Shown here in pieces: positions 430 to 61,809 of a stretch of DNA of 64,000 bases (the stretch's first letter is position 1; each line of letters starts with the position of its first letter). The notes beneath the pieces are model-generated. The model saw only the letters and a list, made by a program, of their open reading frames with translations. It was not told the DNA's origin and did not search any database. The translations under genes were made by a program, and so were the position numbers. The stretch is from Eledone cirrhosa (taxonomy: Eukaryota): the NCBI GenBank assembly GCA_964016885.1, contig OZ024763.1:20212001-20276000 (forward strand), given 5' to 3'.

Positions 430-575
430 ATCCATCGTCCCTGAACCTGTACTTTGTCTTAATCTTATTCTATCGTCCGATGAAGGTCTAGGGTCCAAAA
501 CGTTAAGACACTACCTCCTACTATATCAACCGTATTGTTCTCTTATGTTGTTTTTCTTTGTTGACTTCTCGCATG
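430..575 (+). mobile_element. Degenerate copy of hammerhead-bearing family C (Penelope-like remnant)
   Basis: ccgatgaaggtctagggtccaaaacgttaagac aligns with ctgatgaaagactagcgtccgaaacgttaagac at 45150; followed by (TA)n. Confidence 0.55.
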
Positions 576-1450
576 CATATATATATATATATATATATAT
601 ATATATATATATATATATATATATGTGTGTGTGCATGTGTGTGTATGCATGTATGCGTGCGTGTATGTGTGCATGTGTGCGTGTGTGTGTTTGCATGTAT
701 GCGTGTGTGTGTATAAATATGTGTATATGTAGTATATATATATATGTGTGTGTGTGTTTGAGTGTATGTATTCACGTAGATTTAGTTTTAAATGTGCGTG
801 TTTGTGTGTGTGGTGTAGCCATTTAAGCAGAAAAATAGTGAGGAGGGTGTATATATATAATATATTTAGGTTTATATACACACACACACACACATCTATT
901 ATATATCCATGGGTAATTTAACACAGACAGTTTGTCCTCGTTTACAATTATATTCGCTCACACACATACAACCACACTGCATAGACATACATTGCAAATA
1001 TATTGTATATGCGTTACACACACACACATAGCATATGCACTACACGCACACGCAACATATGTACTACACACACACACTCAGCATATGCACTACATACACA
1101 TACACACACACAACATATGCACTACACACTCACACACTCAGCATATGCACTACACACACAGCATATACACTACACAGACACACTACACTCCAAACAGCAT
1201 ATACACACACACATATACACACACACATATATACACTACACACACAGCATACACACACATAGCATATACACTACACACATACACACACTCAGCATATACA
1301 CTACACACATACACACACACAATATACGCTACACACACATACACACACACAATATACGCTACACACACATACACACACACAATATACACTACACACATAT
1401 ATACACACGGCATATGCACTACACACAAACACAGCGTATACACTGCACGC
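576..1450. repeat. (TA)n/(TG)n/(CA)n compound microsatellite and CA-rich minisatellite
   Basis: Visible dinucleotide runs; ~30-bp unit acacacaatatacgctacacacacatac repeated. Confidence 0.9.
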
Positions 1451-1703
1451 AATACAAATATGTTTCGTAGTGTTGCACACAAGGCATCAATTAAATGCAT
1501 ACAGAGTATTTTTAGACAACATTATGCCTGCATGAGCCCTTAACTCTCGACAGTCTTAGGGGCGCCGTAGTGATACACAGCATGACTAAGGCATTTAAGA
1601 GTCGGTGAAACCTATCTCCACCCAAAGTGTGAACACCAGTCTATTTCTTCCTATGAAAGACAGAGAGAAAGATATATATATATATATATATATATATATA
1701 TAT

Positions 1704-1922
1704 ATAGGAACGAGTAGGACCCCGACGGCTGAGCTCAAGCCGTTTCGACGGCTAATTCTGGACAGAATTAGCCGTCGAAACGGCTTGAGCTCAGCCGTCG
1801 GGGTCCTACTCGTTCCTATTACCCACTCTACTACCCTAAGTATTGAGTACTTTGGTGCGTCTAAGTATTGAGTACTTTGGTGCGTTATGGTCCATCTGGT
1901 TCCTTACCACATTTCCTTCGTT
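1704..1922 (+). mobile_element. Fold-back element family A (perfect ~57-bp-arm palindrome plus ~100-bp tail) in (TA)n
   Basis: Arms 1704-1760 and 1763-1819; 25-bp tandem duplication at 1836-1885; (TA)n on both sides; related copies at 15773, 17604, 29543, 29839, 36352, 46921. Confidence 0.85.
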
Positions 1923-2544
1923 ATATATATATATATATATATATATATATATATATATATATATATATTAGGTATAGGATTATCCAAGATGTAGTAATGG
2001 TTAATTACTACACTGGATATGGTTGACGTACGGTAAGAGGTTACTCTACGAGTTATGGAAGAATTGTTGAAGAAACTTAGTTCCTGATCCTTCAGTATTC
2101 CGGAGTGTATATAAAGAATGAATAATAACAGGTAGACATCATAAAAAGGTAATTTATTCCGTGTGCTTACAAGTGTTTCCACGGTGGTACTGCAGCCTAG
2201 TTATGCTACGTGCAAATTCACAAGTACTTGCAGAACTCAAATATCCAATGCTGTGACCACTGTTTCCTCATTCTTTATATATATATATATATATATATAT
2301 ATATACAAATAAAATATAGAGTTAATAACTCATATAGATACGCTGCAATCGGGAGATGAAATGGTTATTGATATGGTATGTATGAGAAATCTTGTAAAAT
2401 CCCATATGATTCAGGTTGAATGATATATAACATTTGTGGTGTAATCTACCCTCGTAATTTTAGACACGAGTTTACTGTGTTTACTTCTACACATATTAAT
2501 ATAGATCTATATATATGTGTGTGAGGGTGTGTGTTAATTATTTC

Positions 2545-2700
2545 TGTAGCAAAGGTAAAGGAAAAGAGAGTGCTCTATGTATTGTATAGAGCTATTTAAT
2601 TACAAAATATACAACACAATATAATTATATCATTACCGAAGGTTTCAAGAAAGTAGATGATTCTTGTAAGAAACATCCAATTCAATCGTCAGACAAAATA
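2545..2700 (-). mobile_element. Family O dispersed element with degenerate hammerhead-like motif
   Basis: Minus strand CTGACGA...GAAACCTTCGGTA; similar sequence at 46720-46825. Confidence 0.45.
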
Positions 2701-2739
2701 GGTTTTATATATATATATGAGGAGAGAGAGAGAGGGGAA

Positions 2740-2900
2740 GAATCGATCCCTGTGCTAGACTGGTACTTTATTTATCGATCTCAAAAGGATGAAAGGCAAA
2801 GTTAACCTCGGTGTGATTTGAAGTCTGCGAGCAGAGAACCGGAACGAATACTGCAAAGTATTCTATCTGACGTTCTAACGACTCTGTCAATTCTCCGCCT
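2740..2900 (-). mobile_element. tRNA-derived SINE family 1, diverged copy
   Basis: ctggtactttatttatcgat...ggatgaaaggcaaagttaacctcgg...atttgaa matches the other copies in the window. Confidence 0.8.
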
Positions 2901-2989
2901 AGATAGGAATTTGTATACCACCATGACAGGAAAATCGTCACATGTATGTTAGTAGCTACATGTTTGTTGCAGTATAGTGTATTCTGACG

Positions 2990-58884: not shown

Positions 58885-59300
58885 TTCTTCTTATCGTATC
58901 CATAAGAGTGTCGGCTACAAAGCTTGGCTAGATGTGGTTCCACCACAGCTGAACACACTGCTGTCCTTTCTCATTAAAATCTGCCAAGTCCAATTGCTGT
59001 GCAGGGGTGTTCATGAGGTGCGGCGTAGTCTGTGGTTCGATGCCGCAGTCACACACAACGTCCTCATCATTTAAATATTCCCTTTTTGCAATATTGGCTT
59101 TTTCACGTCCAACACCAGGTTTTAGTCTATTGAAGCATTTCCACACAGCACAGTCGAATGGTTAAGACGTTCATTTAGGAATCATTAGGTTCCTGGCTTG
59201 ATCCCATACTGTGGCATCATCGACAGTCGTTTACCTTAGCTTCAGGTCCACACAATACTTGTGACTGAAATCTTGTAGACGGAAACTGCGTGGAAGCCCG
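58885..59300 (-). pseudogene. C-terminal fragment of a non-LTR retrotransposon ORF (RTEX-like zinc knuckle)
   Basis: WKCFNRLKPGVGREKAN...CDCGIEPQTTPHL. Confidence 0.65.
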
Positions 59301-59704
59301 TCGAATGGATTATACCTGCAAGTCTTTCAATATAAAAATATGGTGATCCATTTATTATATATATATATATATGTTTATGCCCTTGAGAAGCCCAACTGGG
59401 CGAAACGTACGTAGGTGATATTTTAAATAAACATGTTTTAACGGTCTATTCTCCGATTTTTCACTTTCCCACGTATATATATATATATATATATATATAT
59501 ATATATATATATATATATATATATATATATATATATATATATATGATTTCCTTCGACTGAAACAGTTCTAGTCCTGTAAAGGCCATTTCTATATTAAATT
59601 GTAACATACACTCTACTAAAATTTTGAGTACCTTACTTACTCCAGTTACCCCCGATTGTACCCGGAAGTCTCTCTCTCTCTCTCTCTCTCTCTCTCTCTC
59701 ACAC

Positions 59705-60090
59705 GTGTGTGTCTTTTGGGAGGCTCCCGTACAGCTCTGAGTTCTTCATCCTCAGTGTATACTGATTAATGTTCAGAGCCATCCTCAGCATTCTCGTGTA
59801 GCACCCAAACGTCAGCTCAAAGGTAGCACAGAGGAGACTGGGGTTGGCTGGACATGCTCACCGACATCCAGAGTTGATACTGCACCCAGTGCTCCCGTGG
59901 GAGCCCTTGCATGGACACACTGGAAGAGGGAGACCGAGGTTGACATATGTTGATGCCCGAAGGACAGACGCTGGTCTCTGGGAGACGCAGGACATGGCAG
60001 CGATGATGAGGGACAGAGACCGTTGAGGAGAACTCGTCCATGGATCTAGGAAATTTTACTCGCCCTAGATAGATAGATAGATAGATAGAT
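59705..60090 (+). mobile_element. 3' end of an RTE-like LINE with (TAGA)n tail; second copy at 61029-61253
   Basis: LAGHAHRHPEL...[19 protein letters not shown]...MRDRDR. Confidence 0.8.
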
Positions 60091-60233
60091 ATGTGTGTGT
60101 GTGTTCAGGTGCGAGTTAATTGCGTCCATAGGCGATCTGCCTAATGAGTACTCGATGCTCTTTGCTCCCTTATATAGTAATACTATATATATATATATAT
60201 ATATATATATATATATATATATATATATATATA

Positions 60234-60678
60234 TACGATATTAACAAATGGAAACTATATTTATAAAACCATATTTATTTCATTATACATATTTCAAGGA
60301 CACCACATTAAATTATGGTGTGCTTTCATCAGATAAAATATAATATAGAGCAGTTTTATAAATAAATATTGACATACCCTTAAAGAATGCAACATTTACT
60401 GTTGGAAGCTCCCGGATAGTAATACTTCCAACAGTAATGGTTGCATTCTTTAAGGGTATGTCAATATTTATTTATAAAACTGCTCTATATTATATTTTAT
60501 CTGATGAAAGCACACCATAATTTAACTTGGTGTCCTTGAAATATGTATAATGAAATAAATATGGTTTAATAAATAGAATTTCCATTTGTTAATATCGTAT
60601 TTTTACTCCAAATAATTGTTATCAGTTATAAAAATATTTGCTTGTTGTATCCCAACAATTTAAATAGAACTTTTACAT
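60234..60678 (+). mobile_element. Family B fold-back with ~175-bp arms and tail; hammerhead core at 60501 with mirror copy in the left arm
   Basis: Arms 60234-60408 and 60425-60600; stem II AAGcACACCA/TGGTGTcCTT. Confidence 0.9.
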
Positions 60679-61642
60679 ATATATATATATATATATATAT
60701 ATATATATATATATTAAATAGAGGTGTGATACACGAGTTGTGATATATTAGTAAAAGGGAAAAGAAAATGCTGACAAATTTTTCCCAGTGAAAAATAGTT
60801 TAATTAGGAATAAGTATAAATTAGTAATAAGCATTGGTTAGTATTCAGTTTTTACCGGTTGCGCATGTCTAATGCTTTTCAAAAATAATTTTGAGATAGA
60901 GGGCTCGTGATGTTTGCTCTAATCTATTACTAGATTACTAATTTATACTTATTCCTAATTAAACTATTTTTCACTGGGGAAAATTTGTCACCATTTTCTT
61001 TCCCTTTTTTCTAATTATATATATATAATTGGCTGGACATGCTCACCGACATCCAGAGTTGACATTGCACTCAGTGCTCCTTTGGGAGCCCCTATATGGA
61101 CACACTAGAAGAGGAAGACCAAGGTTAACATATGTTGATGCCCTAAGGACAGACACTGGTCTGTTGGAGATGCAGGATATGGCAGCGATAATGAGGGACA
61201 GAGACCGCTGGAGAGAACTCGTCCATGGATCTCGGGAATTTTACCCGCCTTAGATATATATATATATATATATATATATATATATATATATGAGAGAGAG
61301 AGAGATTTACTTTTATCTCTACCAAAGCACAACCATCGTATATGCTATTAACTGTGTACTCTCTGAACAGCTGATTGCAACTGCAATTCGGCAGATTCAT
61401 TGACTGAGCTAGACGTTGGCCGAAGAAGGTTGACTTAATACCAGAGATCTTCGTTACTTTTATATATATATATATATATATATATATATATATATAAGGA
61501 ATTTATATCTAGTAACATTTATATACACACAGATGCATATCAATGCTAGCAAATATATAGGTTTTGTCTTATTAACAATGTGGTTCAATGCATAATAAGT
61601 TTCCAGTGTCCTCGCTATGCCTGGAGACCTATACGGAAACAG

Positions 61643-61725
61643 ACTTTCCTGATGACGGAATGATTTTCGATATGGTTCTTCGGAAAATATATTTACTCCA
61701 TTCCAGAAACTAATTAGTTGGAAGT
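61643..61725 (+). ncRNA. Type I hammerhead, family H, predicted cleavage after GUU at 61719
   Basis: ACTTTC-CTGATGA-cGGAATG...CATTCCa-GAAACTAATTAGTT-GGAAGT. Confidence 0.75.
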
Positions 61726-61809
61726 GATTTTTTAGTAAGTAAGTTAATTTTATAATTTTCTTATTTTACGTCTCTCATATTATATATATATATATATATA
61801 TATATATAT

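What the first reader, a model, noticed from the sequence alone, without database searches (positions are those of the whole stretch)
430..61782. Dense population of fold-back, hammerhead-ribozyme-bearing non-coding elements targeted to (TA)n
Seen: about 10 sequence-unrelated short families (A-C, E-H, J, K, M-O) lie in or beside (TA)n tracts. Many have an inverted partial copy joined to a longer tailed copy. Most contain CUGANGA-stem II-GAAA-short stem III-NUH closed by stem I; around 20 motif instances including mirror and degenerate copies. Known: Penelope-like elements carry minimal type I hammerheads in pseudo-LTRs, form inverted arrangements with 3' tails, and palindromic stem III variants work as dimers. 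Inference: these are Penelope-mobilised remnants or retrozyme-like elements of many families. No RT/GIY-YIG ORF is visible in the window.
Basis: partly seen in the sequence, partly recalled or inferred. Interest (0 to 1): 0.9.

Follow-up and report, generated by a model that had tools for sequence, protein, structure and literature searches.

The report
Scrambled hammerhead ribozyme in animal retroelements
This repeat-rich animal DNA is full of short tail-ends of Penelope-like jumping genes that carry ordinary hammerhead RNA motifs, but one family, with about 20,000 copies in the genome, has the hammerhead's parts in a scrambled order, predicted to fold around an extra four-way junction; if it cuts itself (untested), it would be the first well-supported rearranged ribozyme of this kind in a cellular genome.

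Summary
Observation confirmed: 11 intact type I hammerheads against 0.055 in shuffles. Damaged or variant copies bring the total to about 29 (hand tally). Families J, O, F and P extend into Penelope-like (PLE) ORFs elsewhere in the genome. That part is known biology, and the window is only about twice the genome average.

New: family E (21376, 37222, 44075) is a non-coding unit of about 530 nt with PLE-type ends. Its hammerhead blocks lie in the non-circular order S-G-C, which Eckert 2023 validated in metatranscriptomes and did not find in genomes of known organisms. Stem II is not a direct helix (35% paired). Both of its strands pair with an upstream segment, forming a predicted four-way junction. 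The model's helices covary (96% paired, 21 of 28 pairs compensatory). The motif has 20,260 genome matches (control 2), and 4 of 31 metagenome hits share the fold.

Cleavage is untested and no RNA run was listed. An earlier scan note on other DNA read a similar look-alike as non-catalytic; that remains the main rival.

The parts
44075..44269 (-). Family E copy (5'-truncated, long 3' end, (TA)n on both sides). Holds the complete permuted hammerhead-like motif at 44133-44248; predicted cut between 44196 and 44195; G12 at 44179, C3 at 44152.
37222..37476 (+). Family E copy (5' boundary approximate). S, G and C blocks intact (predicted cut 37363/37364); the upstream arm-2 strand and half of hairpin b are deleted.
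21376..21491 (+). Family E copy that begins at the predicted cut (21379/21380), fused to (TA)n.
34782..35229 (+). Family F fold-back: inverted short copy plus tailed copy, with type I hammerheads at 34826-34886(-) and 35031-35091(+). 3' end of a PLE (clade Nematis-like, assigned from recalled motifs).
34244..34690 (+). F-type remnant with hammerhead at 34591-34655.
60236..60680 (.). F-type fold-back with hammerheads at 60276-60340(-) and 60493-60557(+).
37575..37800 (+). F-type copy with a U4C core change (37585-37649).
49382..49640 (-). F-type subfamily copy with hammerhead at 49525-49591.
49665..50206 (.). Family J fold-back: pseudo-LTR of an RT+GIY-YIG PLE, interrupted by a SINE-like repeat. 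Hammerheads at 49784-49822(-) and 49896-49934(+), with palindromic stem III.
48766..49180 (.). Family H with a long-stem-II type I hammerhead at 48819-48897(-) and an inverted partial copy.
61530..61782 (+). Family H subfamily with hammerhead at 61643-61725; stem II compensatory relative to the 48819 copy.
47140..47330 (-). Family B with an intact minimal hammerhead at 47224-47259. Damaged B copies at 430-570, 22676-22866, 45091-45231 and about 58300-58359.
45290..45480 (.). Family G fold-back with a near-intact hammerhead at 45364-45416(-). Other G copies at 37503-37570, 45986-46117 and 59546-59665.
35929..36345 (-). Family O: 3' UTR/pseudo-LTR of an RT+GIY-YIG PLE, with a U3-A8 core and GCAA in place of GAAA. 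Other copies at 37871-38107 and 60717-61015.
1707..1921 (+). Family A fold-back with tail; only the 3' half of a hammerhead. Other copies at 15773-16088, 17606-17749, 29542-29723, 29838-30019, 36347-36419 and 46923-47103.
46727..46870 (-). Family C hammerhead-like copy with weak stems; second copy at 2557-2700.
23130..23395 (+). Family K copy with a damaged stem III; intact motifs occur in other loci.
46580..46689 (.). Family M fold-back holding the 3' part of a hammerhead.
18300..18506 (.). Family P fold-back: PLE terminus without a clear hammerhead.

Best explanation
The short repeats are 5'-truncated insertion ends in (TA)n, four families of which extend into Penelope-like ORFs elsewhere in the genome, and one of them, family E, is a non-coding unit of about 530 nt, likely mobilised by Penelope proteins, that carries a predicted self-cleaving hammerhead whose blocks lie in the non-circular order S-G-C and whose stem II is replaced by a predicted four-way junction.

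Shown by sequence: the hammerhead core letters; stems I and III; a 6-bp helix joining the stem I side to the stem II side; two helices (arm 2, arm 4) that tie the strand after CUGANGA and the strand before GAAA to one upstream segment with a hairpin between them; partial tandems; two fixed 3' ends about 50 nt apart; variable 5' truncation; inverted neighbours; TA targeting.

Inferred: tandem copies are transcribed. The motif cuts after NUH (AUA, AUC, GUA) and cuts multimers into unit-length RNAs. A PLE RT/GIY-YIG protein supplied in trans nicks (TA)n and starts reverse transcription at two internal sites about 65 and 115 nt downstream of the cut. The other families use ordinary type I hammerheads, many with palindromic stem III that likely act as dimers.
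For: Covariation:
- 30 copies: 92% of 987 cells paired, 21 of 33 pairs with two-sided change, 0 of 500 shuffles as high, slid controls 27-50%.
- 15 copies across subfamilies E1, E2 and E3: 95.7% of 420 cells paired, 21 of 28 pairs compensatory (6 of 6 in stem I, 3 of 5 in stem III, 5 of 6 in the interaction helix).
- Segment tables: 91 of 97 unique E1/E2 copies and 25 of 30 E3 loci.

Core letters behave as in a hammerhead: N7 varies, H17 is A 59, C 31, U 1 and never G, and GAAA holds in 89 of 91. E3 keeps G10.1-C11.1 in 21 of 25.

Same fold elsewhere: 4 of 31 metagenome pattern hits (3 distinct sequences) pass a complementarity filter that chance passes 0.0005 times in 31. Their hairpin b and arm 2 were seen by eye and were not part of the filter.

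Abundance: 8,909 and 20,260 genome matches, controls 0 and 2.

PLE-type ends: of 99 terminal units, 15 end near +65 and 46 near +115, and 90 end in TA. In 8 of 11 measurable inverted pairs, one copy has the short end and one the long end.

Weak hint of a cut RNA end: 18 of 60 truncated E copies start within 10 nt of the predicted cut, against about 6 if uniform.

Precedent: type SGC cleaves in vitro (PMC10085705). Internal RT initiation explains PLE tails (PMC11167929).
Against: - No cleavage or expression data.
- A direct stem II is absent (35% of 150 cells paired).
- The 10.1-11.1 pair holds in only 70-80% of copies and is missing in subfamily E2.
- U16.1 is C in 3 of 30 aligned copies, and many E3 cores read CCGA.
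- Related copies inflate pair counts.
- No autonomous PLE carrying the E motif was found among 174 E1 and 31 E2 hits or in 50 further loci, so trans-mobilisation is inferred from end structure alone.
- The E unit folded as a circle is no more stable than shuffles (-79.3 against -81.8 +/- 5.3 kcal/mol), unlike the self-paired retrozyme circles of PMC7229834.
- The 5'-end pile-up can come from TATA microhomology at the site, and some of the 18 ends are alignment extensions into TA. F, B and G show no pile-up (0 of 55, 1 of 27, 2 of 67), though short copies were harder to detect there.
- In the anole PLE, hammerhead cleavage needed the protein and was dispensable for insertion in vitro (PMC11167929).
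Confidence: 0.68

Rival explanations
1. The E motif is a hammerhead-derived but non-catalytic fold that the PLE protein recognises, or that positions RT initiation. The core letters are kept for binding, not cutting.
For: A direct stem II is absent and each of its strands sits in another conserved helix. Subfamily E2 lacks a 10.1-11.1 pair. Hammerhead mutants did not impair PLE insertion in vitro (PMC11167929). An earlier scan note (e1-8034208) reached this reading for an R2-like tail; I did not check its data.
Against: Exactly the catalytic positions stay fixed while all helices turn over, N7 is free and H17 is never G. E3 keeps the canonical G10.1-C11.1 pair. Unrelated metagenome sequences keep the same core and spacing. 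A U-U mismatch at the base of stem II is tolerated by an active axolotl hammerhead (PMC7229834), and J, G and H here have such mismatches.
Confidence: 0.2
2. The motif cuts only when assembled from blocks of neighbouring tandem units, in a classical circular order (for example C1-G2-S3), so it is not a true cis permutation.
For: 16 of 115 copies have a downstream tandem unit at 445-672 nt. Dimeric action is common for PLE hammerheads (PMC4209133, PMC6765202).
Against: All partner strands lie within about 115 nt at fixed spacings. The single-unit MFE already recovers arm 2, hairpin b, the interaction helix and stem III (z -2.5). Stem III (4-5 bp) is not palindromic. Published SGC ribozymes cleave in cis.
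Confidence: 0.07
3. E is mobilised by a non-PLE machine (LINE-type), or is the terminus of an autonomous PLE not yet seen.
For: No partner element was found, and only about 200 of about 20,000 copies were inspected. LINE RT remnants are present in the window.
Against: Two fixed ends 50 nt apart, partial tandems, inverted 5'-truncated neighbours and TA targeting match PLE anatomy (PMC8557442). Upstream extension leads into the previous non-coding unit, not an ORF.
Confidence: 0.05

Closest known systems
Type-SGC (HRIMA-1 and variant) non-circularly permuted hammerheads, Eckert et al. 2023, PMC10085705
   Same: Block order S-G-C; conserved core; stems I and III; a short linker from the stem I 3' strand to the strand before GAAA; an extra helix bringing the stem I and stem II sides together.
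   Different: There stem II is a direct helix (text; also my reading of the SGC-3 oligos). Here it is split into two helices on an upstream fourth block, forming a four-way junction. The paper found none in genomes of known organisms. This one is in an animal genome at about 20,000 copies, inside a mobile element.
Non-LTR retrozymes of animals (Cervera & de la Pena 2020, PMC7229834; Li et al. 2026 preprint 10.64898/2026.07.22.740005)
   Same: Non-coding tandem unit with one hammerhead-like motif per unit; proposed PLE origin and mobilisation.
   Different: Those carry type I hammerheads in 150-450-bp units that give self-paired circles. E units are 445-672 nt, 68% pyrimidine, not self-paired as a circle, mostly 1-2.5 units long, with an S-G-C motif.
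Pseudo-LTR hammerheads of Penelope-like elements (Cervera & de la Pena 2014, PMC4209133; Craig et al. 2021, PMC8557442; Frangieh et al. 2024, PMC11167929)
   Same: Families J, O, F, A, B, C, G, H, K and M: type I motifs, palindromic stem III, U3-A8 variants, solo truncated copies, opposite-strand pairs, tails, microsatellite bias.
   Different: Only in amount and detail: an estimated 2 x 10^5 intact motifs in 3 Gb, against about 9,000 in Xenopus and 126,247 in axolotl. Tails are 50-105 nt rather than 30-40. Family O has a fixed GCAA core.

Membership tests
Type-SGC hammerhead (family E) | Blocks in 5'-3' order S, G, C with the conserved core CUGANGA, GAAA, UH | tested here: met
Type-SGC hammerhead (family E) | Stems I and III with covariation | tested here: met
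   6 of 6 and 3 of 5 pairs compensatory
Type-SGC hammerhead (family E) | Stem II as a direct helix between the strand after CUGANGA and the strand before GAAA | tested here: not met
   35% of cells paired, 2 of 5 pairs never form. Only the 10.1-11.1 pair is mostly kept. It is therefore filed as a variant, not a member.
Type-SGC hammerhead (family E) | Extra helix joining the stem I and stem II sides | tested here: met
   6-bp helix, 5-6 of 6 pairs compensatory. It reaches the stem II side through the upstream block.
Type-SGC hammerhead (family E) | Site-specific self-cleavage | not testable with these tools
Non-LTR retrozyme (family E) | Non-coding unit in tandem with a ribozyme motif in each unit | tested here: met
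   Longest ATG ORF 95 aa in a 526-nt unit; tandem spacings 445-672 nt
Non-LTR retrozyme (family E) | Type I hammerhead | tested here: not met
   Order is S-G-C
Non-LTR retrozyme (family E) | Expressed as circular, self-paired RNA | tested here: inconclusive
   No RNA holder listed. The circular fold is not more stable than shuffles.
Penelope-like elements (families J, O, F, P) | Terminal repeat attached to an RT + GIY-YIG ORF | tested here: met
   Pfam GIY-YIG is above cut-off and RVT_1 just below cut-off in L064, L061 and L073. The F and P partner ORFs were recognised by tblastn and motifs; two Nematis-like pieces had no Pfam hit.
Penelope-like elements (families J, O, F, P) | Tail, inverted 5'-truncated copy, microsatellite targets | tested here: met
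   Counted for F and seen for J and O; TA proximity
Penelope-like elements (families A, B, C, G, H, K, M) | Attachment to a PLE ORF | tested here: inconclusive
   One locus for A (L123); none convincing for the rest in about 1.3 Mb of loci
PLE clades Neptune / Nematis | Placement in an RT phylogeny | not tested
   Clade names rest on linker Zn-finger motifs, partly recalled; no tree was built

The most novel reading that the evidence does not exclude
Family E defines a new hammerhead architecture: four blocks (splint, S, G, C), non-circularly permuted, with stem II replaced by a four-way junction. It self-cleaves, drives an abundant class of Penelope-mobilised non-coding elements in an animal genome, and occurs in other organisms (three unrelated metagenome sequences). 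Standard type I/II/III descriptors and Rfam miss it.
Probability: 0.62. Interest if true: 0.87.

Novelty: new variant of a known kind. Interest (0 to 1): 0.76.

Why it matters
Non-circular RNA permutations were first reported in 2023. Apart from one weak bacterial candidate they came from environmental contigs with unknown hosts. Family E would place one in a cellular genome, inside a mobile element with a likely role, with about 20,000 natural variants showing which positions can change.

A hammerhead whose stem II is cut back to one pair on a four-way junction would test how much of stem II the core needs. It would also mean ribozyme surveys of eukaryotic genomes have missed a whole form. 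A 115-nt RNA and a one-day assay decide the question.

The rest of the finding, Penelope remnants with type I hammerheads in TA tracts, is known. It is notable only for the load, an estimated 2 x 10^5 intact motifs.

Tried and rejected
- Rfam: no hammerhead among the 150 displayed of 371 window hits; 0 hits at gathering score in 5 loci. Uninformative.
- Reading family E as type I, II or III: rejected because the partner strands lie in S-G-C order. A direct stem II was also rejected.
- A generic S-G-C descriptor without stem II is not specific: 5 hits in 400 kb against 0-5 in shuffles. The case rests on covariation, not on that count.
- Expression: no RNA holder listed. The three contig sets laid (one sample, possibly the assembly's source) show only that the repeat is abundant. 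Neither is evidence for or against.
- Autonomous partner of E: none found. The PLE ORFs near E in L300, L306 and L309 are on the other strand, and the L309 ORF ends in its own type I motif.
- E pattern in prokaryote genomes: 0 of 19 hits pass the filter. Viral contigs: 0 of 1. Metagenomes: 27 of 31 hits fail. The pattern has fixed spacing and excludes E3, so these searches are narrow.
- Wider context of the four passing metagenome contigs could not be read. Their 300-nt flanks gave no PLE protein match.
- 5'-end analysis: one search was swamped by TA matches. In one search the family A result was also swamped and its anchor was 1 nt off, so it is unused.
- timed out and was rerun.
- Distances are 1 nt too long.
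- Lunse et al. 2017 is not held; its figure of about 150,000 variants is recalled only.

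
Full report
SETTING. The window is G000:C24:20212001-20276000 of a 3.0-Gb genome. Only 27.4 kb of the 64 kb is left after masking tandem and simple repeats. The closest named relatives of a PLE protein from this genome are from bivalve molluscs, at about 50-63% identity. The host is therefore probably a mollusc; 'octopus-like' is my recalled impression and was not established. 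Family letters are my own.

1. THE OBSERVATION. Type I descriptors of rising tolerance found 8, 9 and 11 intact motifs, against 0.035, 0.05-0.07 and 0.055 in dinucleotide shuffles. With damaged and variant copies read by hand there are about 29 cores in 10 families. Family A adds 3' halves at 7 places. Fold-backs are common. 40 of 44 motifs lie within 250 nt of (TA)5+, against 29% of 2,720 random positions; the tandem array L166 was left out of that count. Nine PLE protein queries found nothing in the window. The RT region at 19321-20229 (RVT_1 E 2e-26 plus PHD) is LINE-type by my recalled reading.

The window is not special. Forty preset 10-kb stretches gave 34 motifs, 7 of them in one array, against a mean of 0.8 in 20 shuffles. 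One stem III group alone has 85,832 exact matches, control 228.

2. MOST FAMILIES ARE PENELOPE ENDS. A GIY-YIG search of the genome gave 150 scored hits. I read 30 of them as short loci and 20 as longer stretches, 2 of which overlap the first set.
- Family J follows RT+GIY-YIG ORF ends by 290-373 nt in L060/L080, L064, L065, L068, L074 and both arms of L076. Family O follows them by 0.5-1.3 kb in about 20 loci.
- Extended from the DNA side, family F reaches a GIY-YIG-like C-terminus about 1 kb upstream in L005, L011 and L027, and its tail runs into an ORF start in L009.
- Family P flanks an RT/GIY-YIG-like ORF in L146 and L161. Family A has one such link (L123). B, C, G, H, K and M have none that convinces.
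- In F, 22 of 27 main copies end 144 nt after the predicted cut, and 8 inverted neighbours end at 52-63 nt (29 loci examined).
This is the tail and inverted-copy anatomy described for PLEs (PMC8557442, passages). It is explained by two internal RT start sites (PMC11167929, parts 1-2 of 4). Minimal hammerheads, palindromic stem III, U3-A8 cores and solo or opposite-strand copies are described in PMC4209133 (parts 1-2 of 4).

3. FAMILY E IS DIFFERENT. Three window copies have CUGANGA with no GAAA downstream; GAAA lies 27 nt upstream and the UH site 18 nt upstream of that. The strand 3' of UH pairs with the strand 5' of CUGA (stem I, 6 bp). The strand 5' of UH pairs with the strand 3' of GAAA (stem III, 4 bp plus A15.1-U16.1). 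This is block order S-G-C, the non-circular permutation that Eckert et al. validated in vitro. They state that no RNAs were found in genomes of known organisms apart from one weak GCS candidate (PMC10085705, parts 1-5 of 8).

Stem II is not a direct helix: 35% of 150 cells pair and two of five pairs never form. Instead the strand after CUGANGA pairs with the start of an upstream segment (arm 2), and the strand before GAAA pairs with its end (arm 4). A 7-8-bp hairpin lies between them. With the 10.1-11.1 pair this makes a four-way junction next to the core. A further 6-bp helix joins the segment after arm 4 to the segment before stem I, in the role of the stem I-II interaction.

4. TESTS OF THAT STRUCTURE.
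- 30 E1/E2 copies: 92% of 987 cells pair, 21 of 33 pairs change on both sides, and no shuffle of 500 reaches this; slid controls give 27-50%. The E2 rows were out of register for three helices in that alignment, which lowers the figure.
- 91 of 97 unique copies could be parsed by anchors: 81-100% pairing for the other pairs, but 77% for one hairpin-b pair; H17 A 59, C 31, U 1; N7 U or C. The parser required U at 16.1, and 3 of 30 aligned copies have C there.
- A weak profile hit led to an older third subfamily, E3, at 79-85% identity to the query. It changes letters in every helix yet keeps all of them, with G10.1-C11.1 in 21 of 25 parsed of 30 loci. Pairing per position is noisier (11-25 of 25), and many cores read CCGA.
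- 15 hand-picked copies of all three subfamilies: 95.7% of 420 cells pair and 21 of 28 pairs are compensatory; arm 2 was not scored. Relatedness inflates the cell counts, but not the fact that three subfamilies use different letters in the same helices.
- Single-sequence folding recovers the nested part of the model (z -2.5).
- Independent support: a fixed-spacing core pattern hit 31 metagenome stretches. Four of them (L353, L354 = L357, L367) have stem III 3/3, stem I 6/6 and arm 4 plus interaction 9-10/10, where chance gives 0.0005 in 31. By eye they also have hairpin b and arm 2. In these four, position 11.1 extends arm 4 rather than pairing with 10.1. None of 19 prokaryote hits and 1 viral hit passes. 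The hosts of those contigs are unknown.

5. THE E ELEMENT. It is a 445-672-nt unit in partial tandems. One 526-nt unit has no ATG ORF above 95 aa and is 68% pyrimidine. Of 99 terminal units, 93 end within 200 nt of the predicted cut at a microsatellite, 90 of them TA. Fifteen end near +65 and 46 near +115; the sample favours long ends. In 8 of 11 measurable inverted pairs one copy has each end. The genome holds 8,909 matches to the upstream part and 20,260 to the G-to-C part, controls 0 and 2. Many copies are 98-99% alike, so the family spread recently. No copy inspected was attached to an ORF.

Of 119 copies not selected for length, 60 are truncated within -189..+30 of the cut, and 18 of these start within 10 nt of it, against about 6 if uniform. 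This could reflect RT running off a cleaved 5' end. It could equally reflect TATA microhomology or alignment extension into TA, so it is a weak hint. Against a classical retrozyme circle, the unit's circular fold is no better than shuffles.

6. MECHANISM. Shown: anatomy, pairing, copy number, targeting. Inferred: transcription of tandems, cleavage in cis after NUH, binding by a PLE protein made elsewhere, nicking of (TA)n, and internal RT initiation at two sites. I put this at 0.68. The main rival (0.2) is a non-catalytic recognition fold. Against it, the letters that stay fixed are the catalytic ones, and imperfect stem II bases are tolerated in an active axolotl hammerhead (PMC7229834, parts 2-3 of 6).

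7. IS IT IN PRINT? 'type-SGC' with 'hammerhead' is in one held paper only. Searches on permutation, four-way junction, octopus and retrozyme terms (listings only, except the papers named here) showed no report of this form in an animal genome. Passages of PMC13725137, PMC10162972 and PMC6765202 and part 1 of 5 of the 2026 retrozyme preprint added none. PMC13725137 does mention hammerhead variants 'containing additional helices'; I could follow only two of its three references. In the Eckert supplement I ran two text searches. I did not see figures S6-S8 or read the SGC alignments, so a split stem II among their variants is not excluded. Subscription journals are mostly not held.

8. VERDICT. 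Family E is a new variant of a known kind: it likely works like an SGC hammerhead in a retrozyme-like element, but it fails the direct stem II and type I membership tests. Interest 0.76.

Noticed in passing
window 35929-36345, 37871-38107, 60717-61015; L073, L078: Family O pseudo-LTRs have a U3-A8 core with GCAA in place of GAAA, in 24 of 54 CCGG-type motifs counted (overlapping loci not removed); sister PLE families keep GAAA. A recently copied PLE with a non-standard position 13.
   Followed up: partly
L166:449-3403: Tandem array with seven type I hammerheads at about 482-490-bp spacing, a classical non-LTR retrozyme; related motifs in L148 and L071.
   Followed up: no
L123, L129, L100: Long family A copies have a U3-A8 hammerhead with a 6-bp stem III, likely able to work as a monomer. 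Most genomic copies are truncated or inverted at one spot inside the stem II loop.
   Followed up: partly
L353, L354, L357: Besides the permuted motif, these metagenome contigs share an extended arm 2 and two downstream blocks, suggesting a related repeat family in another organism.
   Followed up: partly
window 18540-20650: Degraded LINE-type RT region with a PHD finger. Further LINE-like remnants at about 54840-55380, 59844-60064, 61029-61250 and 21516-21649.
   Followed up: partly
window 11923-12115, 24571-24760 and about 20 other places: Very abundant SINE-like repeat without a hammerhead: 57 copies in the 400-kb sample.
   Followed up: no
window 2989-11265: 45-bp satellite, 184 copies, 90% matches. 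A 112-bp tandem lies at 13633-15089.
   Followed up: no
window 58363-58525: Family N fold-back with CUGAAGA but no GAAA partner found; rare in the sample.
   Followed up: partly
L146, L161: Family P belongs to a further PLE lineage with a divergent RT motif region and no clear hammerhead in the part examined.
   Followed up: partly
window 29481-30125: 296-bp tandem duplication that includes a family A fold-back with its flanks.
   Followed up: no
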